The notes: generated from the letters alone by a model not told the origin. 64,000 nt of DNA from a virus (IMGVR_UViG_3300013902_000267), one strand, 5' to 3'; positions 9,602 to 61,911 are shown, numbered from the stretch's first letter. Numbers and translations: made by a program.

Positions 9602-9624
9602 ATGTATCTTTGTATTGTTAATAA
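9602..9624 (+). promoter_or_regulatory. conserved 23-nt promoter-like motif ATGTATCTTTGTATTGTTAATAA
   Basis: Near-identical copies lie upstream of at least four other genes in the window. It contains TATCTTTG, which matches the Bacteroidetes sigma-A -7 consensus TAnnTTTG. It sits 34 nt upstream of ATG 9658. Confidence 0.5.
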
Positions 9625-9657
9625 ACAAAAAGTATAAACAATTAAAAATATATAATT

Positions 9658-10149
9658 ATGGCAACAAATAAAAAGAATACAGTTAAGAAGTATATGCTTT
9701 CCCAAAATTTACCTTTTGGTAATTTAAAAGCAGGCATGATTTTCTCTTATGATACTATTACAAAAACTGCGGTATTTCCAAATGGACAAGAGATCTCACC
9801 ATTTGATGTAACAGATAAGAATTTCGTTAAGTCTGTCGCAGATGTAAAGTTTAATGTAGGTGATTGTGTCATTTATCATACACGATTGTATAAGATTACT
9901 GATATTAACTATGTAACAGGTCGTTGTAAGCTTTTAGAGTTTTACGCAAATAAAGAGGTTGATTTTGTAAGTCATTCTGTATTGACAGCAGCACAAGTTT
10001 ATTGGTTTGTTAATTCGTCTGGAACTGTTTCATCATCATATATTGGCAAACAACCAGATGCAGACTTATGGAGAGCAAAAACAAAGAACATGTTTAATAC
10101 CAAGGAGGAGTGTCAGAAGTATAAGAATATTGTTCTTAAAAGTAAATAA
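9658..10149 (+). CDS. hypothetical protein (163 aa)
   Basis: Uninterrupted ORF preceded by the conserved promoter motif and followed by a hairpin. Confidence 0.5.
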   Translation: MATNKKNTVKKYMLSQNLPFGNLKAGMIFSYDTITKTAVFPNGQEISPFDVTDKNFVKSVADVKFNVGDCVIYHTRLYKITDINYVTGRCKLLEFYANKEVDFVSHSVLTAAQVYWFVNSSGTVSSSYIGKQPDADLWRAKTKNMFNTKEECQKYKNIVLKSK

Positions 10150-10198
10150 AGAATATTTTTCAAATTTAAAATTTTAAATTAATATTTTATTTAACTCT

Positions 10199-10232
10199 TA
10201 AAGAGATTTGTAGTGATTACAAGTCTCTTTTT
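10199..10232 (+). terminator. terminator-like hairpin
   Basis: AGAGATTTGTA-gtgat-TACAAGTCTCT followed by TTTTTT. Confidence 0.5.
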
Positions 10233-10270
10233 TCTTTTTAATAAATATATAAAATATAAAAGAAGTATTA

Positions 10271-10863
10271 TGCCAACAATGATGCCATTAATGGATAAAG
10301 ATACCGTAAGATATATAACATAGAATATTACACCAGAAGAAACTAAATATGTAGCTGATATAAAATCTACTATTGATGATACAAAGTGTGAACCAGAGAA
10401 ATGTGATGATGTTATATATCTTACTAAGATTATCGCTTTTTATACTAAATTTACAAATCTTGCAAATACAACACCTAATAATCAATATAAGATGCATATT
10501 CAAGATTTTATGTGGAGATTACAGCAATATAAGGAAGATATATTTGAAGTTGTTCAATCTATCATAGGAGTTTTAAATGGTTCCGATATTACAAAGATTG
10601 AATTACCTATAAGTGATAATCCATTAGAGATTATAAATGAATTAAAACAATGTGTACAAAATTGGTTTACACTTCATACAGATGATATTGAATATGAAGG
10701 CGCTAGATCATTAACTAGTTCATTCCTTTCTGTAATTCATAAGTTTGTTTACCTTTTTAGATTAGATAAATGCTCGACTGCTGATTATGGTCAGGATTAG
10801 AAATTACCAAATCCTGATGCAGGATTATGTGGAGTAAACGGAGCATATGCAGTAAATTTTTAA
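10271..10863 (+). CDS. hypothetical protein with in-frame TAG codons; needs a -1 shift at a T-run (10438-10441) for continuity
   Basis: Frame from ATG 10271 reads MPTMMPLMDKDTVRYITQNIT... up to the T5 run. The -1 frame continues ...YTKFTNLANTTPNNQYKMHIQDF... through TAG 10798 to TAA 10861-10863. Confidence 0.35.
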
Positions 10864-10874
10864 TATGATATAAT

Positions 10875-11828
10875 ATGAATCCTATAAATCAACCATCATC
10901 TAGAAATTACAATATCAATGGTAGTACAAGAAATAATGGGTTCTTATATAAAATTATGCCTTTATCATTTAATTTACAATAGAGAGGAAATGATTTTAAA
11001 GTTAAAAAATACAATAAGTGTAAATTTAATATCGGCGATAATGTAAGAGGATTGTGTTTGGAAGATAAGAAAGAACATTCAGGACGAATTACTAATATCT
11101 TATACAGTACAAATACAGAAGTTCCTTATTTAGTTTATATCATTGATAATAAGACAAGATAGAAATTATCATTAAACTTTAGTTCGCTAGAATTTAATAA
11201 TTCTAAAATTGATGAGTCATATGGGTTTGATGTTGCCATTAAACTATATGAAACATTAAATAAAGATAAATATAATAAATTAAAACTTTAGAATAGAATG
11301 GTAAATTCAATAAAAGTTTTACTTGAAGAATATTTTAATAATACAGAACAAATGGATATGTTGTTAAATGATTATTAGAAACAACAGAAAAAAGCAAGTA
11401 AAGCATATGATTCACGTCAAGAGTTTTTAAAATCAATATTAGGTAAAGTAACATATAACAAATATCAAAATAAAGGTATGTTTGCTCCTATTCCTTTATC
11501 TGCATTGCATTTAACATTCGAAGATTTTTATTATTTGTTTCCAGAGAATAATATTAAGATGAGACCAATGGATAATGAAGCAGGTGTAGAGAAAGTAAAG
11601 AAACTTATTGCACGTATTAATAAGGAATATCCTAATAACGGTATTAGATTGTTAGATAATGGTGTTTCTTATACATTAAGTTCAAATCTTGTATTTAAGA
11701 GATTAGATAATATAATTGATTTTTTATAGATAATTCAGAAAAATGTTTTGAGGATTTCATCTGATAAAACAAATCCAACAGTTAATTGGAAGGCGATGAT
11801 AAAGAAATTCAGAAATTATCTACGATAA
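10875..11828 (+). CDS. hypothetical protein (317 aa), 5 in-frame TAG
   Basis: Single frame from ATG 10875 to TAA 11826-11828 with no TAA or TGA. It joins ORF-track fragment 11478..11729 to its upstream and downstream pieces. Confidence 0.55.
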
Positions 11829-11861
11829 TCAAATAAGTAAAATAAATTAATTAAAATAATA

Positions 11862-12365
11862 ATGATGATAACTACAAACATAAGTAACATTCCAGACGCA
11901 TGGGATGGTTATTTTGAACAATAGGTTAATAAGTTCACGCCTTCTGTTGAAGTTCCTAAGCCTTGGAGACATCCGGTTGGACCTGAACCTATGATGAAAC
12001 CTTGCAAGCATCATAAGACATAGTTTATTATAAAACATAAACCTGCTACATTACCAAATGGACCAGAACATGGATGTAACGTATGTGATCCATATCATCC
12101 AAATTTGTATGATCATATGAATATGCCTTGTTTTAATCAACATAAACCATATGGTATCGCTACTAATAGATTAATGAGTCCATTTGAAGATGATGATAGA
12201 CCTGATTGGCATGAATTCCATGCTAAGAATCGTAAACCTATGATGTTTGAAGAAGTTATAGATGAAAATGGTTGTTCACATGGTCCTCATGGAACAATTA
12301 ATGTTAGACCAGTTGAACCTGCTGATGATGAAGCAGATGAGATTGAAGATGAAGTAACAGTTTAA
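11862..12365 (+). CDS. Cys/His/Pro-rich small protein (167 aa), 2 in-frame TAG
   Basis: Continuous frame containing ORF 12105..12365. Acidic C-terminal tail. Motifs HGCNVCDPYHPN and CSHGPHG. Confidence 0.5.
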
Positions 12366-12461
12366 AATGAAAATTAATTAATGATAGAAATATAAATTAT
12401 GCAAACATCAAGTAAAGTTTCATACGATAATTGGAGTGATTGGAATTTAGGAAATTAGATA

Positions 12462-13166: not shown

Positions 13167-13182
13167 TTTTTATTCTATATAT

Positions 13183-13889: not shown

Positions 13890-14042
13890 ATTATTATTAA
13901 AGTATATTTTATTTTATTTATCTGTGAAAAATAGGTAGATTAAATGTAGACAAAAATATTTTTTTATAGTATAAATTAAGAATTTAAAAAAAATAGAGAT
14001 AAATAATTAAGTTCAAAAAATAAATTTTAAATAAAGAAGAAA

Positions 14043-14219: not shown

Positions 14220-14389
14220 ATAAGACAAACTTTATTTTAGAGAAGATTATTGTGTAATTAAAATATAACCTAATATAAGGTTTATATTAAACTAATTTTA
14301 GAGATATACTAAATATATTCATTTATATTTGGTATATCTTTTTTTATTTAATAAATATTTAAAATTTATTTAACTGAATTATATAATAT

Positions 14390-15286
14390 ATGGCAACATG
14401 GAATCAAGCAGTTCAATAGATGGGTAAGTTTTATCAATAGAATATACATACATATCAAGGAGGTAAATCAGGACATGCGACAGGTGCTAGACGTTCTTAT
14501 TCATGTCCTTTAGTTGGACACAGTGTAGGAGATGATTGTTCAGGATTTACTTCTGCGTGTTTATAGTTATTTGGAGCATTTCCAGGCTCATATATTGTTT
14601 CATCTAGTGGTTTTGCATCAACATCTGGTGCAACAGCCGCATATTTAAGAAAAGCTGGATTTTCACCGTTAAGATATATTAGTTACTCATCTTTATAGCC
14701 ATATGATATTGTTGCAAGAAATGGACATGTTGAAGTATTTTGTGGTATGAAGGGAAGTTCACCAATGTCATACGCATGGGGAAATATTCATGATGGCATA
14801 AATGGACATGTTGGTATGCCATGTTGGTTTTCTAAACAGTCTTATTCTATTGTATGGAGAAATTCTGGTGTAAGTATAGATACACCATTAGATTTTTCTT
14901 CAGTGTCTGGCGGTTCATTACAACAATAGATGAATTCTGGATATGGTACAGGTGGAACATTAAATGGGTAGACAGGTTCATAGTTTAATTATACATCAAA
15001 TACATATCCTGTTCATGATGAATATGAAACTATTTCATCTGGTAATGGTTCAAAATCTGTATTTGAAATTGTAGGTGAAAATACATTACGTATGGCATAT
15101 ACAAATTCATCATATATACAACAATTAGATTCATCTAATTATTAGTTAAAAAATACTCGTATATATTCAACTAATGATGCATCTATAATATTAGATGAAT
15201 TATCAATACCATTAGATCCATTTGATACGAGTGTTAATACATTAGATTCAAGTGTTATTGATAATTCAGTTAAAACAAATAATTAA
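14390..15286 (+). CDS. NlpC/P60-family cell-wall peptidase (298 aa), about 9 in-frame TAG
   Basis: Continuous frame from ATG 14390 to TAA 15284-15286. It carries the catalytic Cys motif GDDCSGFTS (DCSGF) and the His motif NGHVEVF. Its C-terminal module is shared with the next gene. Confidence 0.6.
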
Positions 15287-28901: not shown

Positions 28902-29038
28902 ACTTAGTTTTCTTTCTATTTTATTTTTGGTAAAATATTTATTCTCGACTATGAGAATTTTTCAAAATATTATTTTATATATTATATAAAAAAATGCAAA
29001 TGAAGTCTTATAACAAACATCATTTGCATTAAAATATT

Positions 29039-32670: not shown

Positions 32671-32779
32671 AGTTTTAATTTTTATAATTATAATTTTATA
32701 TAATTATTTATTACATTTGTCTACTTTTAATATAAAGAAAAGAGAATAACAAGTTAATGTTATTCTCTTCAATATAAAA

Positions 32780-40698: not shown

Positions 40699-40724
40699 AT
40701 TTCTTATTTTTTATAATTGAATTA

Positions 40725-40745
40725 TTACATCACAAAGATACACAT
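40725..40745 (-). promoter_or_regulatory. degenerate copy of the conserved promoter motif
   Basis: ATGTGTATCTTTGTGATGTAA on the minus strand, about 27 nt upstream of start 40698. Confidence 0.3.
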
Positions 40746-40810
40746 ATTTTTTAAAACAAAAAAATGATGATACTATATTTTTCAATATAATACCATCATT
40801 TAATATTTAA

Positions 40811-41974: not shown

Positions 41975-42043
41975 TTATTAAAAAATATTTTATATATTTA
42001 TATAAAATATGGAAGCATTTAAACTTAAATGCTTCCATAAATA

Positions 42044-47457: not shown

Positions 47458-47772
47458 TTAAACTATTAAATTTAATTTTTTCTCTTCTTGCTTATCATTT
47501 TTATTCTTCATATTCTTTCTACTTTCAAAAAGTTTCTTATCATATGGACTTAATTCCCTACAATTAGCACATATAAAAACTTTCAATGGAACTTGTGTAG
47601 TTTCTGAACCTTGACCAATAAGCATGCCAGGAACTTTCTTAAAAATAATACCAGGTATAAAAACCTCACATCCACAATTTGGACATACTTCTGAAGGATA
47701 ATCTAACGGATTTACCGCTGGCATATTTGCATTAGTACCAGCGGCATTTCCAAATAGTTTGCTATTTTCCAT
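47458..47772 (-). CDS. zinc-ribbon protein (104 aa)
   Basis: CPNCGC...CANC pair of CxxC motifs. Confidence 0.45.
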   Translation of the reverse strand: MENSKLFGNAAGTNANMPAVNPLDYPSEVCPNCGCEVFIPGIIFKKVPGMLIGQGSETTQVPLKVFICANCRELSPYDKKLFESRKNMKNKNDKQEEKKLNLIV

Positions 47773-51518: not shown

Positions 51519-52227
51519 AATACTTTCTATACTCTTTGTATAATTTATCTATAATCAATTGGTTATCTAAATTTTCAATATGAATTTCATTTACCATTGC
51601 ACATAATTTCCATAATTCATATTGATTAATACCAGATTTTTCATAATCATGATACCATGTAGTTTCAGGAAACATCCATCCATCATCCTCGCCAATACCA
51701 AATATATGAATATCATTATGTAATTTATCTATAATTAATGATACACCACCATATGATTGACAATGACTATTATATGTAAAATGGTAAAGTCTTATAGAAG
51801 CTTCATCATAAAACCCTTTATCATAACAACCAAATGAATCCATCATATTACCTAAATAACACGGATCATAATCATATTCATATTTAACTTCTGCTAAATC
51901 ATTATACCAACGTGGTTGTCGATTTTTAATAACACCTATTTGAATAAGTTTATCTTCAATATCCTTATTATAAGGCCAATATTGCCATAAACAATTGCAT
52001 CCATAATGAGTTAATTCAGCAAATTTATATATATCATTCTGAATACATTCAAAGAATGGTGCATATTGCGTTTTATCTATATTATTTTCTTCAAAATATT
52101 TAAGATCATAACCACAACAACTACCATCTGCATCGGCAAGTAAATCTTCTTTCTGTTTATCAGATAATTCAGTTTTATTAAATATATATGGTAACCATTC
52201 AGAGCCTTTATTATAATCTAGAATCAT
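51502..52227 (-). CDS. hypothetical protein (241 aa)
   Basis: Uninterrupted ORF, Cys/Tyr/Trp-rich. Confidence 0.45.
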   Translation of the reverse strand: MILDYNKGSEWLPYIFNKTELSDKQKEDLLADADGSCCGYDLKYFEENNIDKTQYAPFFECIQNDIYKFAELTHYGCNCLWQYWPYNKDIEDKLIQIGVIKNRQPRWYNDLAEVKYEYDYDPCYLGNMMDSFGCYDKGFYDEASIRLYHFTYNSHCQSYGGVSLIIDKLHNDIHIFGIGEDDGWMFPETTWYHDYEKSGINQYELWKLCAMVNEIHIENLDNQLIIDKLYKEYRKYYEHNK

Positions 52228-52478
52228 ATGGTACCTCCTTTCTTTATTAATATAGGTTTATAATAATCCTGAAAAAATTCAGGACATGCTAAAGGATTAA
52301 ATTCATTAGCTTTACGTAAATCTATATTTTCCCTTACATTTTTACAAAAAGGTTTAAGTACAGAAATTATATCATCTTCAAATATCTTTTCGCCTGTATT
52401 AATATCAACTAAACCAGTCCATGCAACATCTGATCTTTCAGATACCCATTGATTATTTTTATTTAGCCATGTTCTCAT
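52224..52478 (-). CDS. hypothetical protein (84 aa)
   Basis: Uninterrupted ORF. Confidence 0.45.
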   Translation of the reverse strand: MRTWLNKNNQWVSERSDVAWTGLVDINTGEKIFEDDIISVLKPFCKNVRENIDLRKANEFNPLACPEFFQDYYKPILIKKGGTI

Positions 52479-52600
52479 TGTATAATTATCTTTTAGTTTT
52501 ACATTTAATTATACAAGATATTGAATAGAACAATAAATATATATATTCTATCCAATATCAGGCAGCCAGTTTCATTTATAGTTTGAAACAAACTTTTTAT

Positions 52601-52738
52601 TTATCGTACATCACCAGTAAAAATTGCCCATATAAACTGAAGTACCATTCCGATAACTCCAAATACTACAGGAATAATTACACATGCAAGTGCAAATACA
52701 GCAATCGCTATGATGATACCAAGTAAAAACATTATCAT
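52601..52738 (-). CDS. small hydrophobic membrane peptide (45 aa), absent from the ORF track
   Basis: MIMFLLGIIIAIAVFALACVIIPVVFGVIGMVLQFIWAIFTGDVR*, preceded by a degenerate promoter motif. Confidence 0.35.
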   Translation of the reverse strand: MIMFLLGIIIAIAVFALACVIIPVVFGVIGMVLQFIWAIFTGDVR

Positions 52739-52777
52739 AATCTTTATATTTAAATTGTTAATATTTATGTTTATTAT

Positions 52778-52800
52778 TTACATTACAAAGATACATAATA
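52778..52800 (-). promoter_or_regulatory. degenerate copy of the conserved promoter motif
   Basis: ATTATGTATCTTTGTAATGTAAA on the minus strand, about 40 nt upstream of start 52738. Confidence 0.3.
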
Positions 52801-52834
52801 TTTTCCTAAATAAAAAATATATTACCTAAAATTA

Positions 52835-53368
52835 TTAAGAATTTAAATAATTATGAAATGAACCATCATCAGAATCTCCAATAAGATTGTTCAATACATG
52901 CCAATACTCAAGATAACGCTTTGCTTTCTCCATATCCTGTGTTTCTTTCTCCTTATGGTCAGATCTCCAAATATACTTAAATGAATTCAACTTACAGAAA
53001 TCCATTGTTGCTTGTTTTCCAAATGTCTGAAGCATAGCTTCTATACATTGTAAGCCATTACCACCAGCGCCATAATGATTTGGATGTTCAACAACATTCA
53101 AATTCTGTGTACTAAAAATAGGATTTAATTTTGTCTTATGTAATTGTAAATGTGCAGGTTCATCCTTAAATACAATCTTCTCATAATTCAACGGTTCTCT
53201 ATTCTATTCAGCTACATTATCACTAATAGGTTCACCACATTTCTCGTCATTATCTGTTGCAACTTCATCGGTTCTATTAGAAACAAATACAATATCTTTA
53301 TCATCCTTTGTACGTGTAGGTTCACCATATACAGGTTCCTATGTACGAGTTTCCTTATTATAACTCAT
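52835..53368 (-). CDS. DUF3310-family phage protein (177 aa), 2 in-frame TAG in N-terminal extension
   Basis: HPNHYGAGGNGLQCIEAM...KYIWRSDHKEKETQDMEKAKRYLEYW fits the DUF3310 pattern. The true start is ATG 53368 (MSYNKETRT(Q)EPVYGEP...VAE(Q)NREPLNYEK...). Confidence 0.5.
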
Positions 53369-53413
53369 ATTATATCAATTAGTTTTCATTTATAATTATA
53401 CAGTAAAAATAAA

Positions 53414-53884
53414 TCATTGTTTAATAGATTTTAACGAAATTAATGTAGTTCCAGATAAATCTATTAAATCTTTTTCTTTTGATGAAAAATCTAATATATG
53501 TTGTGTATGAGTTTCTTTAATTATACCATCGTTTTCCTATATAGGTTCAGGTTCAATTAAATAAGATAACTATTCATTATTATCTTTTTTATGTATCATA
53601 TATAATGTATTCTGTTCTAACGCATCTTCTATTGAAAGTTCTTTAGTTGAACCATCAGCAAAATATGTTACGCTTGGTATTGGTGCATCTAAATCATAAT
53701 ACGTCTAAATAATATCATATTTAGACGTATCTATATCATTTATACTTTTAATATTAGTTAAATCATCTTCATCATTATTTTCATCTACAATATCTGACGT
53801 AATATCATTAACTCCTGTAAATTTTACTAATAGACAAAGAATAACAAAAAAACCTATACTTATTGATATTACTGGATCTATCAT
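53414..53884 (-). CDS. N-terminally membrane-anchored acidic protein (156 aa), 3 in-frame TAG, absent from the ORF track
   Basis: MIDPVISISIGFFVILCLLVKF..., then an acidic region. Continuous frame from ATG 53884 to TGA 53414-53416. Confidence 0.45.
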
Positions 53885-53913
53885 AATCTCTTATTTTATT
53901 AAATTAATAATTA

Positions 53914-54147
53914 TTATTTACTCTCAAAATTAATAGTTGATACATCTTCCACTTTTTCTTTTAAACTATCAACTGTTATTGTATGTGTATTCTGTTGCTC
54001 TTGTAATGAGTCTACAATGAATTCCTGTGTTTGCTTAATATGCTTTAGCTTCTCTTCATAATCAATACGGAGACGATTTGCAATTACAAGCATCATTATA
54101 AATCCTAATACAAATAAAACAATAAATACTGTTACTATTATATTCAT
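53914..54147 (-). CDS. small membrane protein (77 aa)
   Basis: N-terminal TM helix. Confidence 0.45.
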   Translation of the reverse strand: MNIIVTVFIVLFVLGFIMMLVIANRLRIDYEEKLKHIKQTQEFIVDSLQEQQNTHTITVDSLKEKVEDVSTINFESK

Positions 54148-54264
54148 ATTATTTTCTAATTAAAATTTTACTTTTTATTTATAGTATATTAAATCAATAA
54201 AGTTTATATATTAAAATAAAAAATGGATAGATAGTTAAACGAAAAAACTATCTATCCATCATAA

Positions 54265-55302
54265 TTATGCTTGATACGAATACTTGTCAAACAATGATTC
54301 AATATTAGAGGGATGCACAGCATTTATGCCGATTTCATTGCATTTTTTCAATGTATCATGGAAATCATCTATAAGACATACATCCTTAACATTCCACTTC
54401 ATTTTATGAGCAAACTGCTCAATAAAAACGTGCTTATAATTTTTATTTCCGACAAACATTCGGTTCTCAACAGGAATCTCTGGGAAATATTTATCAAGCC
54501 ATTCATTCTTCTCATTCCACGCTATTGAATTAGCACATGCAGTCACAATATAAACATTCTTCATGTCATAATGTTTCTTAACAAAATCAATGATATGTTT
54601 AACAGGCTTCAAATTTTTAAATAGTTCGCTACTTACAAAATCTGAATTTCCGTTAATATCAAGTTTTGCCTTGCCATAACAAGCTAATGTACCATCCATG
54701 TCAAGAAGTAAATACTTATTGGTAAAATAATCAACGCGAATGAATTCATCTACCAATGGGATGTACTTATTCTTACATGCTTCAATACGTAAATTTTTCT
54801 TATAAATATCTTCAATTGGAACTTTACGAGTTCTTCCTTGAAGTCTATTTATACAAACTTCTACAGGAGTATCAAAGAATATACAAGTAATCTTATCTAC
54901 ATTTTTATTTCTTAAATAATCTATAATACTAAGATTATAATGATTATTAATTCCACCGCCGTCAAGAATAACATTACAATTAATCTTTGAACTATCTGCA
55001 ATAGCAAAAATTATTTTTCGTGTTATTTGAACCGACTCTTCATGAACAACTTCCGGATGTTCATCAGTATAACCTTTTAACAATGGTTTAATTTCATCAG
55101 CAGAAATTACTATTGTTTCATTTATACAAAGATTATCTTCAATTGTCTGAATAATTTTATCTAAATTACATTCATCAAATGGTTTATCTAAAATAGATGT
55201 TAACCATTCAATGAGATGCAAAATATTTGGATAATTCTCTTGAAGATATGTACTTTTACCAGATGCAGGCAAACCGAGGAAGTACGAGAACTTACTGATC
55301 AT
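54265..55302 (-). CDS. P-loop kinase fused to HAD phosphatase (polynucleotide kinase-phosphatase-like)
   Basis: N-terminal Walker A GLPASGKST, as in T4 Pnk GCPGSGKST or NadR-type kinases. C-terminal LLLDMDGTLA is the HAD motif I DxDGT. Domain order matches T4 PseT. Confidence 0.55.
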   Translation of the reverse strand: MISKFSYFLGLPASGKSTYLQENYPNILHLIEWLTSILDKPFDECNLDKIIQTIEDNLCINETIVISADEIKPLLKGYTDEHPEVVHEESVQITRKIIFAIADSSKINCNVILDGGGINNHYNLSIIDYLRNKNVDKITCIFFDTPVEVCINRLQGRTRKVPIEDIYKKNLRIEACKNKYIPLVDEFIRVDYFTNKYLLLDMDGTLACYGKAKLDINGNSDFVSSELFKNLKPVKHIIDFVKKHYDMKNVYIVTACANSIAWNEKNEWLDKYFPEIPVENRMFVGNKNYKHVFIEQFAHKMKWNVKDVCLIDDFHDTLKKCNEIGINAVHPSNIESLFDKYSYQA

Positions 55303-55327
55303 AACTAAAATATAATTTAATTTTTAA

Positions 55328-56911
55328 TTAGTCAACAGTTCCATCAAGAAGTTTATGAACTGCATCTTGACGAGTCTTTCGGATTTCAGCAAGTGTAAAC
55401 TCTCTTACTAACTTACCATCTTCAAAAACAGTCTTCAATTCATTCTTATCTGATGCTTCCTCTTCAGGCGTTACACGATCAACTGGTACATACTTACCAT
55501 TACCATCTTTTACAACCATAAGAAGTCCACGATGTGATTTCTTTGGCATACCGCATACTGTTTTAGGATCCTTATAAATTTCTATAGGTTTGCCATTAAC
55601 TTTACACCATGTAGACTTACAGGCTATGCCTAAAGAATCTCTGGATCGTACATTATAAGTAAAGCTTCCTATACCTTCAATAAGGTTAGTTGCTGCGAAA
55701 CCCTTATCTTCAAGTTGAGAATATGTATCCTTTTGGCGTTTCATATTAATTGAGTCTCCATAAAGAAGTCCAATATGTGGATCAAGAATTTTATATCCTT
55801 TTTCATTAAATGTTCCACCGAACGTATTCCAAAGAAATTCATAAGAACCCATCTTTACAAATGGATCTTCTGCTTCCGGATCACCACAAATAATTTTAAC
55901 AGGATCACCACTATCAGGACGAATTACTACACGCCCATTACGAGACATAATTTGTTCTTTATACTTAGGAACAATCTTTGTCAAGAAATACCAATAATCA
56001 TAACCATCTGCAACAATTGAAATAATACCATCTGGAAATTCATCAAGCATATTCTTAAAATAAACTTCATCATTTGGCTTACCTGTTTCATCTGTTGCAT
56101 TAGAGCACTCAATAGAATGTTCAGTAGCTGGAACAGTTGCAGCTATCAATTCTTTTTTAGGATCTGCATTATAATAATACTCAATCATCTTAATTGCTGG
56201 AACTGTTTCAGAACCACAAAAAGAAGTAAGATGTGCCATACCAGAAACAATAGATGCTTCAAATGAACTCATTCCTCTCATAGAGAAATCATGACATAGA
56301 AATGCAAGATTAGACATATCGTTAGGATTATAAAAACCAGTTTTCATAGCATGTCTAACAAGTTCACGTTTAAATACATCAGCTGTTGTTGCAGAAGTAA
56401 TTGGAAGCCAAAGGACATTTGAAGTCAAAGACTCCAAATAATTTGTGAGCCAAGCAAAATCAGGATGTGTATTTGTGATTGTTAAAATAGGGCATCCGAT
56501 TGGACAATATGAACCTTCAGGAAGTGCCTTAATACGAATAGGAAGATAACCAAGTTTATGCAATGCAATAATATGATCAACCCCTACTTTCTTTGCAACT
56601 GCTTCTCCTAGAAATGTAGTTGTCAAATCTGTATAAGTTTTTCGTACAGTATCTTCATCAAGATTAAAGAAATAATTATTAAATGTATTAATAAGATACT
56701 TCTTAATAAAATACTGAATACCAAACACAACTGCTCCCTCTGTAGCTTCCGGAAAATATTTATTACTACGAGGAGTAAAGTTACTGAAAAGTTGCGTCAT
56801 TCCCTTAGGGTACATACAGTGATGACCAAGCTTGTAGCCATCTGTCATAAGCATTGCATTAAGAAGTATGTCTTCTACCAATACATGCTGTGAATCTTTT
56901 ACGTTTGTCAT
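55328..56911 (-). CDS. nadV: nicotinamide phosphoribosyltransferase (NAMPT/NadV family)
   Basis: 527 aa with TDGYKLGHH, HDFSMRG, RPDSGD and GYDYWY-type blocks colinear with NAMPT. Confidence 0.75.
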   Translation of the reverse strand: MTNVKDSQHVLVEDILLNAMLMTDGYKLGHHCMYPKGMTQLFSNFTPRSNKYFPEATEGAVVFGIQYFIKKYLINTFNNYFFNLDEDTVRKTYTDLTTTFLGEAVAKKVGVDHIIALHKLGYLPIRIKALPEGSYCPIGCPILTITNTHPDFAWLTNYLESLTSNVLWLPITSATTADVFKRELVRHAMKTGFYNPNDMSNLAFLCHDFSMRGMSSFEASIVSGMAHLTSFCGSETVPAIKMIEYYYNADPKKELIAATVPATEHSIECSNATDETGKPNDEVYFKNMLDEFPDGIISIVADGYDYWYFLTKIVPKYKEQIMSRNGRVVIRPDSGDPVKIICGDPEAEDPFVKMGSYEFLWNTFGGTFNEKGYKILDPHIGLLYGDSINMKRQKDTYSQLEDKGFAATNLIEGIGSFTYNVRSRDSLGIACKSTWCKVNGKPIEIYKDPKTVCGMPKKSHRGLLMVVKDGNGKYVPVDRVTPEEEASDKNELKTVFEDGKLVREFTLAEIRKTRQDAVHKLLDGTVD

Positions 56912-57106
56912 AAAATAATTTGTTTAAATTTTAATTTGATTACAATAATAATTTGTTTGTTTAATTATCTTGTAATCATTATTTATATATATTATTAATT
57001 AAATTGTTTATAAAATTCATATTAAAAAAATAACATCCTATTTTCACAAACAAGATGTTAATAATTCAAAGACATATTTATTTGAAAATTAAGTTGCGAA
57101 ATTAAT

Positions 57107-57652
57107 TTATGCAGCCTGTCGAACTTCCCAATCAATAATATCAACAACATACTTTTCTTTGTTGATAGAAATTGACTTAATATTTTTAAGTGAAAGTGTT
57201 CTATACTCAATAACAGAAGTACTTGCCTTTTTCTTTGGCATGAATCTCTTCATATACACTTCATCTTCTGCAGAAATCTTCTCACCATTAAGAATAATAT
57301 TATTCTTTGAATAATTATTAGGAATGTAAATCAAACATACATTACCTGTACTAATATATTGCATAACAACATTCTTTACAAGATGACGGCGATTTGTATC
57401 TGTTGCCTTATAATCCTCACCAAGAATCTTACTCATTGTCTTTTCATAATCCTGTCCAAAATGGAAAGTAACTGAGAAATCTGTGCGTGGTTGAAATCCA
57501 TCCTTAATATGTTCCTTAGGAAGACCATCTGTATTAAACTTATTCAACTTAATATCAGACTCACCATATACAGTGACATACTTACCGTTGCACTTTGCGT
57601 TAGACATAAGCTCGATAAACTCATCTACTGTTGTAATAATATTGTTGTTCAT
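57107..57652 (-). CDS. hypothetical protein (181 aa)
   Basis: Uninterrupted ORF with the conserved promoter motif 36 nt upstream. Confidence 0.5.
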   Translation of the reverse strand: MNNNIITTVDEFIELMSNAKCNGKYVTVYGESDIKLNKFNTDGLPKEHIKDGFQPRTDFSVTFHFGQDYEKTMSKILGEDYKATDTNRRHLVKNVVMQYISTGNVCLIYIPNNYSKNNIILNGEKISAEDEVYMKRFMPKKKASTSVIEYRTLSLKNIKSISINKEKYVVDIIDWEVRQAA

Positions 57653-57687
57653 ATTCTTTATATTTTTAATTGTTCAACTTAATTGTT

Positions 57688-57710
57688 TTATTAACAATAC
57701 AAAGATACAT
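57688..57710 (-). promoter_or_regulatory. conserved promoter motif (minus-strand ATGTATCTTTGTATTGTTAATAA)
   Basis: Identical to the copy at 9602-9624. TTTG lies 17 nt upstream of TAtcTTTG. Confidence 0.5.
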
Positions 57711-57888
57711 GTTTTATTTCAAATAAAAAAATATTAGAAGAAAAAATTAAATATTTTCTCTTAAAAATTTATCGATAAGTTTTTTAACACTATTACATTT
57801 ATATTGTGTTTCTACATAACTACCTGTCCAATCAGTATGAACATGAAAATTCTCAAGAAACCAGTTTGCAATCTTTTCTTTATCCATA

Positions 57889-58188
57889 TCAATAATCTTC
57901 TGCATCTCGTGAAACTCTCATATTCTTTAAATCATTAATGAGTTTTTCACACTCTTTTAACAATACATATATAGTAGAAATAATTATCACTATAATAAAT
58001 AATAATATTCCTAATGCTATATAAAACCCTGAATCTTCATAATTAGAAATAAACTTAAAACATGTAATTATATATGTAAAAGTAAATGGTATTACTAAAC
58101 ATAAAATCCAATTTATTATATGTCTCCATACATGTTTCTCTATATATTCGTTTCTCTCTTTATGTGATTTAAACCATTTATTTTCCAT
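57889..58188 (-). CDS. membrane protein (99 aa)
   Basis: Two TM helices. Confidence 0.45.
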   Translation of the reverse strand: MENKWFKSHKERNEYIEKHVWRHIINWILCLVIPFTFTYIITCFKFISNYEDSGFYIALGILLFIIVIIISTIYVLLKECEKLINDLKNMRVSRDAEDY

Positions 58189-58229
58189 ATTTCCTATTTC
58201 TTTTTTACATCATCAATAGTTAGAATACG

Positions 58230-58415
58230 TCACTTTTTAATATAAAATTTCTTTATAGATGGAGATTCCTGTATTTCTTCAAATAATGAACATGGACTAA
58301 ACCAATTATGTACAGTCTTAGCATATTCCATTGCTGTCTCTTCTGAATCGCAAACTGCAGATAATTCACGATTATATTCGTCACATGTACGATAAACTTC
58401 TACAACTTCTTTCAT
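58230..58415 (-). CDS. hypothetical protein (61 aa)
   Basis: Short ORF. Confidence 0.35.
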   Translation of the reverse strand: MKEVVEVYRTCDEYNRELSAVCDSEETAMEYAKTVHNWFSPCSLFEEIQESPSIKKFYIKK

Positions 58416-58434
58416 AATTATATGTAATTTAAAA

Positions 58435-58623
58435 TTAATTATTCAAATGTATATCATTAATACATAAAGGGATAAAAATATAAAATATATTTTCTATATA
58501 TAATGATAAAATCAAATTCCATAAATTATCTATAGTTAACATATTATAATACCAAAATCCCAATATAGTTAGTACGCTACCTATGATAGAACATAAAATA
58601 GTAAATTTATATATTTGTTTCAT
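58435..58623 (-). CDS. small membrane protein (62 aa)
   Basis: Hydrophobic. Confidence 0.35.
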   Translation of the reverse strand: MKQIYKFTILCSIIGSVLTILGFWYYNMLTIDNLWNLILSLYIENIFYIFIPLCINDIHLNN

Positions 58624-59009
58624 TCTTTAATTTTTCTACCTAAAATATTTTTTAACATCCATACCAACATATTAAATGCAACCAATAATTTATTTTCTGT
58701 ATCATCAGTCTCTTCTGAATGAACTATATTATCACCTTTCATATTTTCAAGTTTCACCGAATAACTATCAATAACCATATAATATTCTGTACTCATAGTC
58801 AAATCTTCAATACGACGGTATAAATCTTGAAGAGTATATGTATAATAACCTAATTTATACTTAACTAATTGTTCACAATAATCTTTGTGCATATTTACAT
58901 TATATTGATTTTTACCAATATAAATTAATGAAGCATCTGAAATATCAAGTCCAAGCTTCACCAATATATCCATATTATCTTTTGATAATGTAATTGTATT
59001 CTCTTTCAT
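58620..59009 (-). CDS. hypothetical protein (129 aa)
   Basis: The ORF-track start at 59030 is TTG. The first ATG is 59009 (MKENTITL...). Confidence 0.45.
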   Translation of the reverse strand: MKENTITLSKDNMDILVKLGLDISDASLIYIGKNQYNVNMHKDYCEQLVKYKLGYYTYTLQDLYRRIEDLTMSTEYYMVIDSYSVKLENMKGDNIVHSEETDDTENKLLVAFNMLVWMLKNILGRKIKE

Positions 59010-59020
59010 ATATATAATTT

Positions 59021-59043
59021 TTATTAACAATACAAAGATACAT
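59021..59043 (-). promoter_or_regulatory. conserved promoter motif
   Basis: Minus-strand ATGTATCTTTGTATTGTTAATAA, 11 nt upstream of ATG 59009. Confidence 0.45.
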
Positions 59044-59147
59044 ATTTTATTTTAAATAAAAAAGAGATATAACAAAATAATCTGTTATACCTCTTATAAA
59101 ATATATCTTAAAATAATAAAAAATTACATAATATATTGTAAAAGCAT

Positions 59148-60137
59148 CTATGTTTCCTCATCAGCTTTTAATTTTGGATATGCAGCTCTAAGTATCTGTA
59201 ATACACGTGTTTCTGTCATTCCATGTTCTTCTGCAACTTGCCATGTATTCTTTTCACCACGTCCATTAATACCATAGCAATCACATACAATTTCACCATC
59301 TCTTTCACCAAGAACTCTCTTTACATTATCTTCAAGTTCTCTTTCAAGATCAGCGTTATTAAGATTACTATCAGGGTCTTTAAATGTCCTATTAGCTGTT
59401 ACATCACCTAATGTTGTTTTAGAATCATCATCATCCCCGTATGATTTATCCAAACTATTTGCACGTGTATTTGCTTCCATTGTTTGTGCAAATGTTTCAT
59501 ATTTCAAATCTGGATGTTTCTTTACGAGAACATTATAAATATCATCAATATCAGGTTCATAACCATTCTTATTATATAATTGATCCTTGATACGAGCGGC
59601 TTCACGAGCAATACTACCCATATTACGGGGAACTGCCATATGTCCACCTACCTCATCAACAGCAGTCATAATTTCTCTACGAATATACCAAATAGCATAA
59701 GAAACAAAACGTACATCTTTACCTGGCAAACTTGGATCATATGTATCTGCTGCTTGCATAAGTCCTATATTTCCATATTGAATCATATCTTCCTTTGGTA
59801 TATTAATATTTTTATACTTATTGACAACAGAAATAACAAATGGAAGATTTGCGGACACCAACTTATTCTTTGCCTTTTCAATTTCTCTCTTATTATCAGA
59901 ATGTTGAATAATATCAGCAAGTTTCACTTCATCTGCATGTGATAATTGTTTTTTCTTATTAATAGCATGTAAATATGCAATAGTAGACTTTGCTGTATTT
60001 TCATCCTGTGTAATAGCAAAATCATCATGCAAATCCATATGCATTCCATTATTAGCTTCATTGAGTTTCTTTCTAATAGTCTTAGAAACATTTCTCATGA
60101 TACTTTCATACAATGTCTTCTTTTCATTTAACTTCAT
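59148..60137 (-). CDS. sigma-70 family RNA polymerase sigma factor
   Basis: Region 2: LPFVISVVNKYKNI...QYGNIGLMQAADTYDP...RFVSYAIWYIRREI. Region 4 HTH: TWQVAEEHGMTETRVLQILRAA. Confidence 0.7.
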   Translation of the reverse strand: MKLNEKKTLYESIMRNVSKTIRKKLNEANNGMHMDLHDDFAITQDENTAKSTIAYLHAINKKKQLSHADEVKLADIIQHSDNKREIEKAKNKLVSANLPFVISVVNKYKNINIPKEDMIQYGNIGLMQAADTYDPSLPGKDVRFVSYAIWYIRREIMTAVDEVGGHMAVPRNMGSIAREAARIKDQLYNKNGYEPDIDDIYNVLVKKHPDLKYETFAQTMEANTRANSLDKSYGDDDDSKTTLGDVTANRTFKDPDSNLNNADLERELEDNVKRVLGERDGEIVCDCYGINGRGEKNTWQVAEEHGMTETRVLQILRAAYPKLKADEET

Positions 60138-60189
60138 ATCTTGATAAAAATTATTTCAATATTTTAAATATTTATCTTAAAATAAAAAT

Positions 60190-60220
60190 AGAGAATAGTT
60201 ATCGCAACTACTCTCTATTT
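60190..60220. terminator. hairpin downstream of the HAD gene
   Basis: AGAGAATAGT-tatcgcaact-ACTCTCT (near-perfect) flanked by A/T runs. Confidence 0.35.
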
Positions 60221-60231
60221 ATAATTATCTA

Positions 60232-60789
60232 TTATTCTATATTTAATATTTGTTTAATCTTTACTATGTCATCCTGTGTTATACCTGAATAACTATCTAT
60301 TTTTATAAAGTTATCCTGTTGATATGTCATCATATCATCATCGTCATCTACTATACAATAATCTATTCTTAATTCATCATCTTTAAATTTAAAATAATCT
60401 TCATCATAAAATTGTTTATAGTTTCGCACATTTGTATTTCCGCTATACATAAGGAAATAATGAATTTCATTTCCTCTTATTGAGTGTTCATCATGATATT
60501 TTGGTGTTATACCTACTATATATTTAATTAAACATTTCAAATCTTTATACTTATCAAACGCATATTTTGTTGCTTCTAATGAAATCTCTCTCCATGACGA
60601 TGATATAACTAATCTTACATTATAATTCTCACATAATTGTTCTATAAGTTTTACTGCATTTTTGTCTACAAAATGATCACCATTTTCTTCATTTATATAT
60701 TTCTTTCCTTCCTTTGTAAAACACCAATTCGCATATTGTTCAGAATTCAAAACACCGTCTATGTCTAAAAATAATATTTTTATATTCAT
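60232..60789 (-). CDS. HAD-superfamily phosphatase (5'-nucleotidase / polynucleotide 3'-phosphatase-like)
   Basis: N-terminal LFLDIDGVLN (DxDGxL motif I), about 185 aa. Confidence 0.6.
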   Translation of the reverse strand: MNIKILFLDIDGVLNSEQYANWCFTKEGKKYINEENGDHFVDKNAVKLIEQLCENYNVRLVISSSWREISLEATKYAFDKYKDLKCLIKYIVGITPKYHDEHSIRGNEIHYFLMYSGNTNVRNYKQFYDEDYFKFKDDELRIDYCIVDDDDDMMTYQQDNFIKIDSYSGITQDDIVKIKQILNIE

Positions 60790-60792
60790 TTA

Positions 60793-61116
60793 TTAATCTT
60801 CATCAAAATTATCATATATTGAAATCTTATTCTTCCTACGTTCTTTCTTAGGTTCTATACAAGGAAAACAATACTCTCCTACATGCTTTATATATCTTTC
60901 ATTCGTATATGTTGGTTCACCTTTAAAATTAAAATTCCGTTGTTCACCATATGCAATATGTTTCTTTTTCTTCCATTTAACAACTTTATCTTTCTGTACT
61001 TCTATATCTTGTAAATCCTTATGTTTATTCTTTACTTTAAATTTTTTATCACATTCTACTACAAAACTAGATGAACCCTTATTTACTTTATGTGTTTGAT
61101 GATAACTTCTTGACAT
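60793..61116 (-). CDS. basic hypothetical protein (107 aa)
   Basis: Lys-rich ORF. Confidence 0.45.
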   Translation of the reverse strand: MSRSYHQTHKVNKGSSSFVVECDKKFKVKNKHKDLQDIEVQKDKVVKWKKKKHIAYGEQRNFNFKGEPTYTNERYIKHVGEYCFPCIEPKKERRKNKISIYDNFDED

Positions 61117-61132
61117 AATATAAATTTTTTAT

Positions 61133-61444
61133 TTATAATCTTTCTATATTTATAACTTTATCTGCTAATAATGGTTTTAATGTTTTATTAAACGTGTTTT
61201 CACTTATAGAAATTTTTTTATATCTTAATTTATATTCTCGTGTATTACTTTCAAAAGGATTATTTACTTCATATTTTAATTCAGAAGCAAAATATATTGT
61301 ATAATATATATTTGGTCTAACAGAATCATATGTTCTACTTATATTCTTTTCTATATATACAATGGATTTAATAGGTAAAATTATATTACTACATTTTATA
61401 TATTCTATATTATTTCCTTTACTATGATTTTTAAATTTTATCAT
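61133..61444 (-). CDS. hypothetical protein (103 aa)
   Basis: Uninterrupted ORF. Confidence 0.45.
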   Translation of the reverse strand: MIKFKNHSKGNNIEYIKCSNIILPIKSIVYIEKNISRTYDSVRPNIYYTIYFASELKYEVNNPFESNTREYKLRYKKISISENTFNKTLKPLLADKVINIERL

Positions 61445-61448
61445 TTTA

Positions 61449-61853
61449 CTAAATATATCTTAAATCATCTGCATAATCGCACATATCTAAAAATTCATTT
61501 TGAAGTTCACTATCTATAATAGTAAATGCTCTGACTTCATCATATGATTTCTTGTCTGGAATAACATCACACCAATCTGCATCCACATCATATACTTTAT
61601 GCGTCGCTGTAGACATAACACGAATCATTGTTTTTTCTTTATATTCTTGTGTATATCCTAACGGTCCATATTCGTTAACTAATACTGTTTTCTTAAATGG
61701 CTTCATAATACATACAAGTCTTGTATTCATTTCATCTTTCTCACATGAATACATTCCTGGTATAAGCAATACTCTTTTACCTGTTGTTACATTTATATTA
61801 TATTCACAGTTACTTCTGAGAAATATCAAATCACCAATATTAAAGCACATCAT
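61449..61853 (-). CDS. hypothetical protein (134 aa)
   Basis: Uninterrupted ORF with the promoter motif 36 nt upstream. Confidence 0.5.
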   Translation of the reverse strand: MMCFNIGDLIFLRSNCEYNINVTTGKRVLLIPGMYSCEKDEMNTRLVCIMKPFKKTVLVNEYGPLGYTQEYKEKTMIRVMSTATHKVYDVDADWCDVIPDKKSYDEVRAFTIIDSELQNEFLDMCDYADDLRYI

Positions 61854-61888
61854 AATTCTTTATATTTTTAATTGTTTATATTCTTATT

Positions 61889-61911
61889 TTATTAACAATA
61901 CAAAGATACAC
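61889..61911 (-). promoter_or_regulatory. conserved promoter motif
   Basis: Minus-strand GTGTATCTTTGTATTGTTAATAA. Confidence 0.45.

What the first reader, a model, noticed from the sequence alone, without database searches (positions are those of the whole stretch)
9602..61911. A 23-nt conserved promoter motif with a Bacteroidetes-type -7 element, plus a phage sigma factor
ATGTATCTTTGTATTGTTAATAA occurs in near-identical form upstream of five unrelated genes: 9602 (+), and 57688, 59021 and 61889 (-), with degenerate copies at 40725 and 52778. It lies 11-40 nt before the start codons. Its core TAtcTTTG matches the Bacteroidetes sigma-A -7 consensus TAnnTTTG. A TTTG is often about 17-19 nt upstream. 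This supports a Bacteroidetes host. The conserved motif extends beyond the -7 box, so it may also be a regulator site or be read by the phage's own sigma-70-family sigma factor (59148-60137).
Basis: partly seen in the sequence, partly recalled or inferred. Interest (0 to 1): 0.6.

Follow-up and report, generated by a model that had tools for sequence, protein, structure and literature searches.

The report
Lak megaphage standard-code (early-type) promoter
The repeated 23-base motif is the core of a promoter used about 60 times in a 550-kb Prevotella megaphage; it heads the genes readable with the normal genetic code, while a second, T4-late-like motif heads the recoded late genes.

Summary
The motif is real: 5 copies with 3 or fewer mismatches, 0 expected by chance. 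The window is Prevotella phage Lak-B7.

Genome-wide I found 60 sites. Of these, 59 are intergenic and 56 point the same way as the next gene. They are conserved at matching positions in Lak-A1 and Lak-C1.

The architecture is a T-run, an A-rich spacer, an invariant RTG-TATCTTTG-TA, a predicted start at a conserved G, and an unstructured A-rich leader of 15-49 nt.

The box fits the Bacteroidota -7 consensus. The claimed upstream TTTG does not exist; a T-run with no G sits there.

Genes just downstream almost lack in-frame TAG (0.4-0.6 versus 10.9 per 1000 codons). Recoded genes instead carry nATAAATA about 35 nt before the ATG, with no -35 element.

The sigma ORF is a real sigma-70 family member derived from a Bacteroidota sigma-A-like ancestor. 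Its gene sits behind ATAAATA, between two terminators. Its region 4.2 is poorly conserved.

It also carries a 27-aa N-terminal tag ending in LNE, shared with at least 12 unrelated proteins.

Best reading: the motif is an early-type promoter read by host RNA polymerase with host sigma-A, and the phage sigma more likely serves ATAAATA. No transcript data exist.

The parts
9580..9624 (+). Class-1 promoter: T-run, A-rich spacer, ATG-TATCTTTG (box 9605-9612), predicted start G at 9617. Drives ORF 9658-10149 (163 aa).
   Evidence: The start site is inferred from the -12..-5 position of the sigma-A box in PMC9723704.
40721..40765 (-). Class-1 promoter, degenerate downstream half. Box at 40733-40740, predicted start 40728. 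Drives ORF 40435-40698 (87 aa).
40764..40799 (-). Intrinsic-terminator hairpin (dG -17.3) whose U-tract is the T-run of the 40721 promoter.
52774..52818 (-). Class-1 promoter (2 mismatches). Box at 52786-52793, predicted start 52781. Drives a 45-aa hydrophobic ORF at 52601-52738.
57688..57732 (-). Class-1 promoter (exact 23-mer). Box at 57700-57707, predicted start 57695. Drives 57107-57652, then the NAMPT gene 55328-56911.
59021..59065 (-). Class-1 promoter (exact 23-mer). Box at 59033-59040, predicted start 59028. Drives ORF 58620-59009 (129 aa, 19-nt leader).
59063..59094 (-). Terminator hairpin (dG -15.7) just after the sigma gene. Its U-tract is the T-run of the 59021 promoter.
61889..61933 (-). 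Class-1 promoter (1 mismatch). Box at 61901-61908, predicted start 61896. Drives ORF 61449-61853 (134 aa).
59124..60137 (-). Sigma-70 family sigma factor, 337 aa, with one in-frame TAG (59148-59150) read as a sense codon.
   Evidence: Pfam Sigma70_r2 1e-11 with weak r1.2, r3 and r4 hits. NCBIfam RpoD/RpoS-type matches. PDB RpoD/RpoS matches at 1e-24. C-terminus alignment.
60057..60137 (-). Codons 1-27 of sigma: the N-terminal tag MKLNEKKTLYESIMRNVSKTIRKKLNE, shared with at least 12 unrelated Lak-B7 proteins.
60169..60175 (-). Class-2 motif ATAAATA, 38 nt before the sigma ATG.
60179..60219 (-). Terminator hairpin (dG -16.4) that insulates the sigma gene from the upstream operon.
61147..61153 (-). 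Class-2 motif before ORF 60793-61116.
62641..62647 (+). Class-2 motif before the tagged lysozyme-domain protein 62683-63897 (9 in-frame TAG).
41995..42001 (-). Class-2 motif before ORF 40811-41974 (7 in-frame TAG).
14351..14357 (+). Class-2 motif before ORF 14390-15286 (8 in-frame TAG).
877..883 (-). Class-2 motif before the tagged protein 223-846. Further class-2 sites are at 10241-10247 (+), 13915-13921 (-), 24489-24495 (-), 28936-28942 (-), 32705-32711 (-) and 54176-54182 (-).

Best explanation
The 23-mer is the core of the Lak megaphage's standard-code (early-type) promoter.

Anatomy, read from the sequence:
- an optional terminator hairpin
- TTTTTT(T)ATTT at about -37 to -26
- an A-rich spacer
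- an invariant (A/G)TG-TATCTTTG-TA
- a conserved G five bases after the box
- an unstructured, A-rich 15-49 nt leader ending in ATTATG

Inferred mechanism:
1. Host core RNA polymerase carrying the host's Bacteroidota-type primary sigma-A recognises TATCTTTG as its -7 box (positions -12 to -5).
2. It starts at the conserved G.
3. It transcribes short operons of TAG-free genes, which can be translated before the phage switches TAG to a sense codon.

The invariance would reflect selection for one maximal-strength version of the promoter, as in T4 early promoters. The T-run doubles as the U-tract of the preceding terminator in about 40% of sites.

Recoded and structural genes use a second promoter, nATAAATA-N4-AA, with no -35 element. 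The phage sigma more likely reads that one, and it would then also drive its own gene.
For: Shown by the sequence:
- 5 window copies against 0 expected.
- 60 genome-wide sites scoring 16-53 bits, against a Markov-control maximum of 11.5.
- 59 of 60 sites are intergenic and 56 of 60 co-oriented with the next gene.
- The ATG lies 7-41 nt after the 23-mer.
- Some sites precede tRNA or non-coding stretches, so this is a transcription signal, not a translation signal.
- Orthologous sites are kept in Lak-A1 and Lak-C1 while the flanks diverge.
- The exact 22-mer occurs only in 9 viral contigs of 86-554 kb.
- The box matches TAnnTTTG, which occupies -12 to -5 in Flavobacterium (PMC9723704; PMC7366714).
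- 35 of the 80 labelled bacterial hits to the 16-mer are Bacteroidota, and some sit in promoter position.
- 23 of 60 sites abut a terminator hairpin, against 6% of random positions.
- Leaders are unstructured.

Link to the genetic code:
- The first and second genes after a site carry 9 TAG in 19,190 codons. About 162 would be expected at the genome mean. Genes with no site upstream have 10.9 per 1000 codons.
- Lak late, structural and lysis genes are known to be recoded (bioRxiv 10.1101/2021.08.26.457843).

Second promoter class:
- 118 genes have ATAAATA at -45 to -22 and no -35 signal. 70% of genes with the motif contain TAG, against 28% of the rest.
- One of these genes is the tail sheath.

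Sigma and the second class:
- ATAAATA precedes the sigma gene in four lineages.
- Region 4.2 recognition residues are altered and not conserved.
- No RNA polymerase catalytic motif is found in the phage ORFs.
Against: There are no transcript 5' ends and no timing data. 'Early' rests on the TAG proxy alone.

The canonical -33 TTTG is absent: 0 G in 31 sites at the expected position. A small sample of Bacteroidota bacterial loci does show that G, and shows diverse 'nn' in the box.

In the phage only nn = TC is enriched in promoter position: 46 of 103 occurrences, against about 3% for every other dinucleotide. The flanking TG and TA are invariant. That is more specificity than host sigma-A is known to need, and it could point to a dedicated factor.

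The sigma's N-terminal tag suggests it might be present at the very start of infection.

My ORF calls are home-made (first ATG, at least 50 aa).
Confidence: 0.5

Rival explanations
1. The phage's own sigma reads the class-1 motif. The sigma is made late, packaged into the capsid through its N-terminal tag, and cleaved after LNE. It is ejected with the DNA and at once redirects host core RNA polymerase to the phage-specific extended box TGTATCTTTGTA.
For: - The motif is much more invariant than the host consensus: nn = TC only, with fixed TG and TA flanks and no -33 G.
- The sigma descends from a Bacteroidota sigma-A-like protein but has changed region 2.4 (WWIRQS to WYIRRE) and region 4.2 (RERVRQ to ETRVLQ).
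- The sigma gene is a late-type, terminator-insulated unit.
- The 27-aa tag ends in (L/I)-(N/S)-E and is shared by at least 13 proteins. One has a lysozyme domain and one looks like a membrane protein, as ejection proteins often do.
- The tag is kept on sigma homologues only 33-51% identical, and it is conserved at the protein level rather than the DNA level.
- T4 internal proteins carry 10-20-residue N-terminal targeting peptides, and the related head proteases cut after Glu (PMC5694885).
Against: - There are no virion proteomics data, and no head protease was identified here.
- The same TATCTTTG core is kept in lineages whose sigma region 4.2 differs completely.
- One contig with a tagged sigma (L168) has six ATAAATA sites and no class-1 site in 14.6 kb.
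- Known phage sigmas read middle or late promoters (my knowledge of SPO1 gp28, phiEco32 gp36 and T4 gp55).
Confidence: 0.25
2. Host sigma-A reads the -7 box, but only together with a phage-encoded activator that binds the conserved upstream block TTTTTTTATTT-n-AAAATAA. This would resemble T4 MotA/AsiA sigma appropriation, making this a middle-type promoter.
For: The upstream block is conserved independently of how the sites were chosen, and it replaces the canonical TTTG.
Against: The block is low-complexity A/T sequence, and in 38% of sites it is simply the U-tract of a terminator. No activator candidate was identified. The immediately downstream genes are the most TAG-free in the genome, which suits the earliest class.
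Confidence: 0.12
3. It is not a promoter. It is a repeated intergenic cassette spread by recombination, or an RNA-level leader element for translation or stability.
For: About 25 sites share an extended leader, AACAATTAAAAATATAAAGAATTATG, and the pair ATTGTT/AACAAT could form a stem.
Against: - The invariant part lies upstream of the variable leader.
- Sites also precede tRNA or non-coding DNA.
- The leaders fold no better than shuffled sequences: dG 0 to -2.9.
- AACAAT occurs equally often without ATTGTT, 10 versus 10.
- Orthologous sites keep the core while the leader diverges.
Confidence: 0.05

Closest known systems
Bacteroidota primary sigma-A (sigma-ABfr) promoters: -7 TAnnTTTG and -33 TTTG (Bayley 2000; Vingadassalom 2005; PMC7366714; PMC9723704)
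   Same: A perfect TAnnTTTG box, an A/T-rich spacer, a short leader without a Shine-Dalgarno sequence, and a Prevotella host.
   Different: nn is fixed as TC. TG directly upstream and TA directly downstream are invariant. The -33 TTTG is replaced by a T-run without G. About 45 nt are conserved across 60 copies.
Phage T4 early promoters (strong host-sigma70 promoters with extended conservation) and T4 late promoters (TATAAATA, gp55)
   Same: A two-tier layout. One class is a many-copy, highly uniform host-type promoter before small genes of unknown function. The other is an 8-bp -10-like element (nATAAATA), with no -35 element, before structural genes.
   Different: The host phylum and box sequence differ. 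The classes here also divide by genetic code (TAG-free versus recoded). The only sigma found has regions 2 to 4, unlike gp55. No timing data exist.
Phage-encoded sigma-70 family factors (SPO1 gp28, phiEco32 gp36)
   Same: A phage sigma that depends on host core RNA polymerase, with altered promoter-recognition residues.
   Different: The Lak sigma carries a 27-aa N-terminal tag shared with unrelated proteins, and it sits behind the late-type motif. Its cognate promoter is unknown.
T4 capsid targeting sequence on internal proteins and Alt; N-terminal propeptides of phiKZ and SPN3US ejection proteins (PMC5694885)
   Same: A short shared N-terminal peptide on unrelated proteins, ending in x-x-E. 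The genes are of the late type, and one carries a lysozyme domain.
   Different: Cleavage and packaging have not been shown. As far as I know, a sigma factor has not been reported with such a tag.
Bacillus subtilis pro-sigma-E and pro-sigma-K
   Same: A sigma factor with an N-terminal pro-sequence of 20-27 residues.
   Different: Those pro-sequences are specific to the sigma. Here the peptide is shared by a dozen non-sigma proteins.

Membership tests
Bacteroidota sigma-A promoter | -7 box TAnnTTTG | tested here: met
   TATCTTTG is present in all six window sites. It is invariant in the 31 seed sites and is the core of nearly all 60 PWM sites.
Bacteroidota sigma-A promoter | -33 TTTG about 19-21 nt upstream of the box | tested here: not met
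   0 G in 31 sites at the expected position; a T6-7 run sits there. Bacteroidota bacterial loci show G at -20 from the TA in 12 of 29 sites.
Bacteroidota sigma-A promoter | Box at -12 to -5 relative to a mapped transcription start | not testable with these tools
   No RNA data. A conserved purine (G in 28 of 31, A in 3) sits where +1 would be.
Bacteroidota sigma-A promoter | Transcribed by host sigma-A holoenzyme | not testable with these tools
   Needs in vitro transcription or a reporter in Prevotella or Bacteroides.
Phage early promoter class | Many co-oriented intergenic copies at operon heads | tested here: met
   60 sites, 59 intergenic and 56 co-oriented.
Phage early promoter class | Drives genes expressed first | tested here: inconclusive
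   By proxy only: 0.4-0.6 TAG per 1000 codons in the first two downstream genes, against 10.9 elsewhere.
Phage-sigma-dependent promoter | The phage encodes a sigma-70 family protein | tested here: met
Phage-sigma-dependent promoter | The motif departs from the host consensus in step with changed sigma residues | tested here: inconclusive
   The motif is more specific than the host consensus, and sigma regions 2.4 and 4.2 are changed. However, the core is identical in lineages with very different region 4.2.
T4-type late promoter (for the second motif) | Short -10-like TATAAATA-type element, no -35, before structural genes | tested here: met
   nATAAATA with no upstream information content. It peaks at -40 to -26 from the ATG. 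Genes behind it include the tail sheath and are TAG-rich.
T4-type late promoter (for the second motif) | Dependence on a gp55-like sigma, a co-activator and the sliding clamp | not tested
   I could not annotate the whole proteome. No gp55 search was done.
Sigma-70 family, group 1/2-like | Regions 1.2, 2, 3 and 4 | tested here: met
   Region 2 scores 44.6 bits, above the Pfam cutoff. Regions 1.2, 3 and 4 fall below the Pfam cutoffs but align over their full length to RpoD and RpoS in PDB.
Capsid-targeting propeptide | A shared N-terminal peptide on unrelated proteins, ending at a head-protease-type x-x-E site | tested here: met
   At least 13 proteins end the tag in (L/I)-(N/S)-E. Conservation is at the protein level.
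Capsid-targeting propeptide | Cleavage by the head protease and presence in virions | not testable with these tools
   Needs virion mass spectrometry.

The most novel reading that the evidence does not exclude
The Lak sigma factor is a virion-delivered sigma. It would be synthesised late from an ATAAATA promoter and targeted to the capsid by a 27-aa N-terminal peptide shared with at least 12 other proteins. It would then be cut after LNE and ejected with the DNA, so that host core RNA polymerase is captured from the first seconds of infection. In that role it would read either the invariant class-1 box or bootstrap the ATAAATA class. This would be a sigma-based counterpart of the virion RNA polymerases of N4, phiKZ and crAss-like phages.
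Probability: 0.25. Interest if true: 0.85.

Novelty: new member of a known kind. Interest (0 to 1): 0.55.

Why it matters
Lak megaphages are uncultivated, about 550 kb long, and switch the meaning of TAG during infection.

A sequence-level map would turn the published 'recoding as a timer' idea into something testable on existing metatranscriptomes. The map has two promoter classes that follow the genetic code: class 1 before TAG-free genes and ATAAATA before recoded genes.

It also offers a compact, probably very strong promoter-plus-leader cassette for Prevotella and Bacteroides engineering.

Finally, the tagged sigma raises the possibility of a new way for a phage to seize host transcription. 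Neither the Lak discovery paper nor the recoding preprint mentions promoters.

Tried and rejected
- **Leader hairpin (ATTGTT...AACAAT).** Rejected. Leaders fold at 0 to -2.9 kcal/mol, no better than shuffles. AACAAT occurs as often without ATTGTT.
- **Motif as part of a longer repeat or of paralogous genes.** Rejected. The flanks beyond about 90 nt differ, and the downstream proteins are unrelated.
- **Generic TAnnTTTG enrichment.** Absent in the window and, for every nn except TC, across the genome.
- **Rfam.** It found only tRNAs in the window and around sites that have no ORF.
- **phmmer for sigma paralogues.** It found none. The hits came only through the shared N-terminal tag.
- **Naming the nearest non-Lak sigma relatives.** The cluster look-up returned no names. 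I call them Bacteroidota sigma-A from their length of about 287 aa and their N-terminus MRQLKIxxxITNRE. That identification rests on my own knowledge.
- **Scan of bacterial genomes with the 16-mer.** It shows Bacteroidota enrichment but little else.
- **Covariation between sigma residues and motif variants across L166, L167 and L168.** Uninformative, because both motifs are the same in all lineages that have them.
- **Regex for RNA polymerase catalytic motifs.** No hit. This is weak negative evidence.
- **Literature search for a packaged sigma.** Nothing found.

Full report
**Identity of the window.** Window 52000-62500 is 100% identical to Prevotella phage Lak-B7 (MK250026.1, 550,702 bp, circular, from baboon faeces). 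It is 99% identical to the other Lak-B genomes and about 80% to Lak-A and Lak-C. The record has no annotation. I fetched the whole genome; the window is genome 139512-203511. G+C is about 27%.

**The observation.** The 23-mer has 5 matches with 3 or fewer mismatches, against none in 100 shuffles. A sixth, degenerate copy lies at 40721-40743. The conserved block is longer than reported. Upstream is TTTTTT(T)ATTT-n-AAAATAA. In a subset of sites there is also a shared leader, AACAATTAAAAATATAAAGAATTATG. The six downstream proteins are unrelated. Generic TAnnTTTG is not enriched in the window, 130 versus 113 +/- 11.

**Genome-wide picture.**
- 31 real sites lie within 4 mismatches of the 23-mer.
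- An iterated position-weight matrix gives 60 sites at 16-53 bits. The best score in Markov-simulated genomes is 11.5.
- 59 of 60 sites are intergenic, although only 13% of the genome lies outside ORFs of at least 80 aa. 56 of 60 are co-oriented with the next gene.
- The ATG lies 7-41 nt after the 23-mer.
- Several sites precede tRNA genes or ORF-free stretches, such as genome 129717 before tRNA-Lys and 125970/126093 inside the tRNA array. The element is therefore a transcription signal, not a translation signal.
- Orthologous sites in Lak-A1 and Lak-C1 keep the T-run and RTGTATCTTTGTA while the flanks and leader diverge.
- The exact 22-mer occurs in IMG/VR only on nine contigs of 86-554 kb.
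- More distant megaphage contigs (L166, L167) have the same core, TGTATCTTTG(C/T)A.

**Anatomy.**
- In the 31 seed sites, the positions upstream of the 23-mer were not used for selection. They show T at -21 to -16, A at -14, TTT at -13 to -11 and an A-run at -9 to -2.
- The sigma-A box occupies -12 to -5 in Flavobacterium (PMC9723704). On that basis the conserved G at 23-mer position 16 (G in 28 sites, A in 3, of 31) is the predicted start.
- Predicted leaders are 15-49 nt, A-rich and unstructured. That suits translation without a Shine-Dalgarno sequence, as in Bacteroidota.
- 23 of 60 sites have a strong hairpin ending within 4 nt of the T-run, against 6% of random positions. In those sites the T-run is also a terminator U-tract. 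In the rest it is conserved without a hairpin.

**Fit to the host consensus.** The box fits. The -33 TTTG does not: no G at the expected position. Among all TAnnTTTG boxes in the genome, only nn = TC is enriched in promoter position, 46 of 103 against about 3% for every other dinucleotide. In 8-kb loci from Bacteroidota bacteria that I had fetched, TAnnTTTG boxes upstream of genes have diverse nn. They show G at -20 from the TA and have no fixed TG in front (only 29 sites). The phage therefore uses one rigid derivative of the host-type promoter. 35 of the 80 labelled bacterial hits to the 16-mer are Bacteroidota. About a third of those are intergenic with an ORF downstream.

**Link to the genetic code.** Reading TAG as a sense codon raises coding density from 65% to 90%, as is known for Lak phages. 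Genes ranked first and second after a class-1 site have 0.39 and 0.56 TAG per 1000 codons. The rate rises with distance from the site, and genes with no site upstream on their strand run have 10.9. In total there are 9 TAG in 19,190 codons, where about 162 would be expected at the genome mean. The gene map shows promoters followed by runs of TAG-free genes, and large recoded clusters without the motif.

**A second motif.**
- Upstream regions that lack the class-1 box are enriched for ATAAATA: 129 of 289 regions, with 20 expected.
- It peaks sharply at -40 to -26 from the ATG. 98 of the 141 genes that have it contain TAG, against 126 of 457 without it.
- Its logo is nATAAATA-N4-AA with no upstream signal. 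This resembles the T4 late promoter TATAAATA (my knowledge).
- One gene behind it is the tail sheath.
- Twelve such sites lie in the window.

**The sigma factor.**
- It has Pfam region 2 at 1e-11, with weaker region 1.2, 3 and 4 matches. It gives RpoD/RpoS-type matches in NCBIfam and in PDB at 1e-24.
- The true ORF is 59124-60137. The TAG at 59148 is followed by MLLQYIM, which matches the C-terminus of homologues.
- The closest relatives outside the Lak group are proteins of about 287 aa beginning MRQLKIxxxITNRE. I recognise that N-terminus as Bacteroidota primary sigma-A, from my own knowledge; the database gave no names.
- Against those relatives, region 2.4 changes from WWIRQS to WYIRRE, and region 4.2 from LTRERVRQI to MTETRVLQI. 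Region 4.2 varies widely among the megaphage homologues.
- The gene is monocistronic. A terminator (dG -16.4, 60179-60219) and ATAAATA (60169-60175) lie upstream. A terminator plus the 59021 class-1 promoter lie downstream.
- ATAAATA also precedes the sigma gene in L166, L167 and L168. L168 has six ATAAATA sites and no class-1 site in 14.6 kb.
- No RNA polymerase catalytic motif occurs in any phage ORF.
- These points, together with what is known of other phage sigmas, favour the pairing of this sigma with ATAAATA.

**An unexpected tag.**
- A phmmer search with the sigma hit six unrelated small proteins, only through a shared N-terminal peptide, KKxLYESIMxxVSKxVKKKLNE. A profile built from it finds at least 13 carriers.
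- Almost all of them sit behind ATAAATA.
- One (window 62683-63897) has a phage lysozyme domain.
- The tag is conserved at the protein level: identity is 76-77% at codon positions 1 and 2 and 59% at position 3, with serine codon-family switches.
- It is kept on sigma homologues only 33-51% identical.
- It ends in (L/I)-(N/S)-E. T4 internal proteins carry 10-20-residue N-terminal capsid targeting peptides, and the T4, phiKZ and SPN3US head proteases cut after Glu (PMC5694885).
- Packaging of the sigma is thus a live but untested possibility.

**Verdict.** The motif is a real, lineage-wide promoter element of the Bacteroidota -7 type. Its most likely reader is host sigma-A holoenzyme. The phage sigma is a less likely reader of this motif, and more probably reads ATAAATA. 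No paper I could search describes Lak promoters. The Lak discovery paper has no occurrence of 'promoter', and neither does the recoding preprint.

Noticed in passing
window 877-883, 10241-10247, 13915-13921, 14351-14357, 24489-24495, 28936-28942, 32705-32711, 41995-42001, 54176-54182, 60169-60175, 61147-61153, 62641-62647: A second promoter-like motif, nATAAATA-N4-AA, with no -35 element. It lies 22-45 nt before the ATG of 118 genes genome-wide and is enriched before TAG-containing genes. It resembles the T4 late promoter.
   Followed up: partly
window 60057-60137 (-), 766-846 (-), 62683-62760 (+); also L001:41507, L011:32936, L003:1598-2023, L005:31343-31915 and others: A 22-27-aa N-terminal peptide, KxLYESIMxxVSKxVKKxLNE, is shared by the sigma factor and at least 12 unrelated proteins. 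One has a lysozyme domain. The peptide ends in a head-protease-like x-x-E site, so it may be a capsid-targeting propeptide.
   Followed up: partly
whole window, for example 10270-10863, 14390-15286, 40811-41974, 62683-63897: TAG is read as a sense codon. Coding density rises from 65% to 90% under code 15. This is known for Lak phages. Recoded genes cluster away from class-1 promoters.
   Followed up: yes
window 59148-59150 (-): The apparent TAG stop of the sigma ORF is a sense codon eight codons before the real TAA. Full-length sigma therefore needs TAG suppression.
   Followed up: yes
L002:45144, L007:36795, L008:34545, L010:39598 (+); L011:44291, L005:21586 (-); none in the window: A third repeat family. 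The exact 34-mer CTCAAAATACCAGTATTTATTTTACTTACTTTTG occurs six times, inside an intergenic block of about 90 nt that is also conserved. Its function is unknown.
   Followed up: no
L001:30261-30400, L003:25970-26200, L010:31900-32053 (-): Class-1 sites that are followed by no ORF. Three share TCTTTGAAATTTTGATA downstream, so they may drive non-coding RNAs or tRNA-precursor leaders. Rfam gives no match at gathering score.
   Followed up: partly
window 33-103 (+), 62092-62187 (-), 62194-62266 (-); L007:45556-45628; L009:14053-14125: There are tRNA genes in the window. Elsewhere in the genome are tRNAs with anticodons UUA and CUA (suppressor-type) and two tRNA arrays.
   Followed up: no
window 52601-52738 (-): The class-1 site at 52774 drives a 45-aa, very hydrophobic small ORF that ordinary ORF-length cut-offs miss.
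   Followed up: no
window 55328-56911, 54265-55302, 32780-34771, 36439-37560, 39036-40082, 42044-43555, 44492-45682, 47772-48881, 60232-60789, 5069-5938: Recognisable genes in the window: NAMPT-type phosphoribosyltransferase, NT5C/kinase, HSP90-like, TelA, CNNM/CBS transporter, RNA ligase, DnaB-like helicase, an S1-domain protein, an RNA-repair HAD domain, and a SAICAR-synthetase-like protein.
   Followed up: no
L005:31950-31972 (-): One promoter region carries both motifs back to back: ATGTATCTTTGTTAAAAGATAAATA, before a tagged protein.
   Followed up: no
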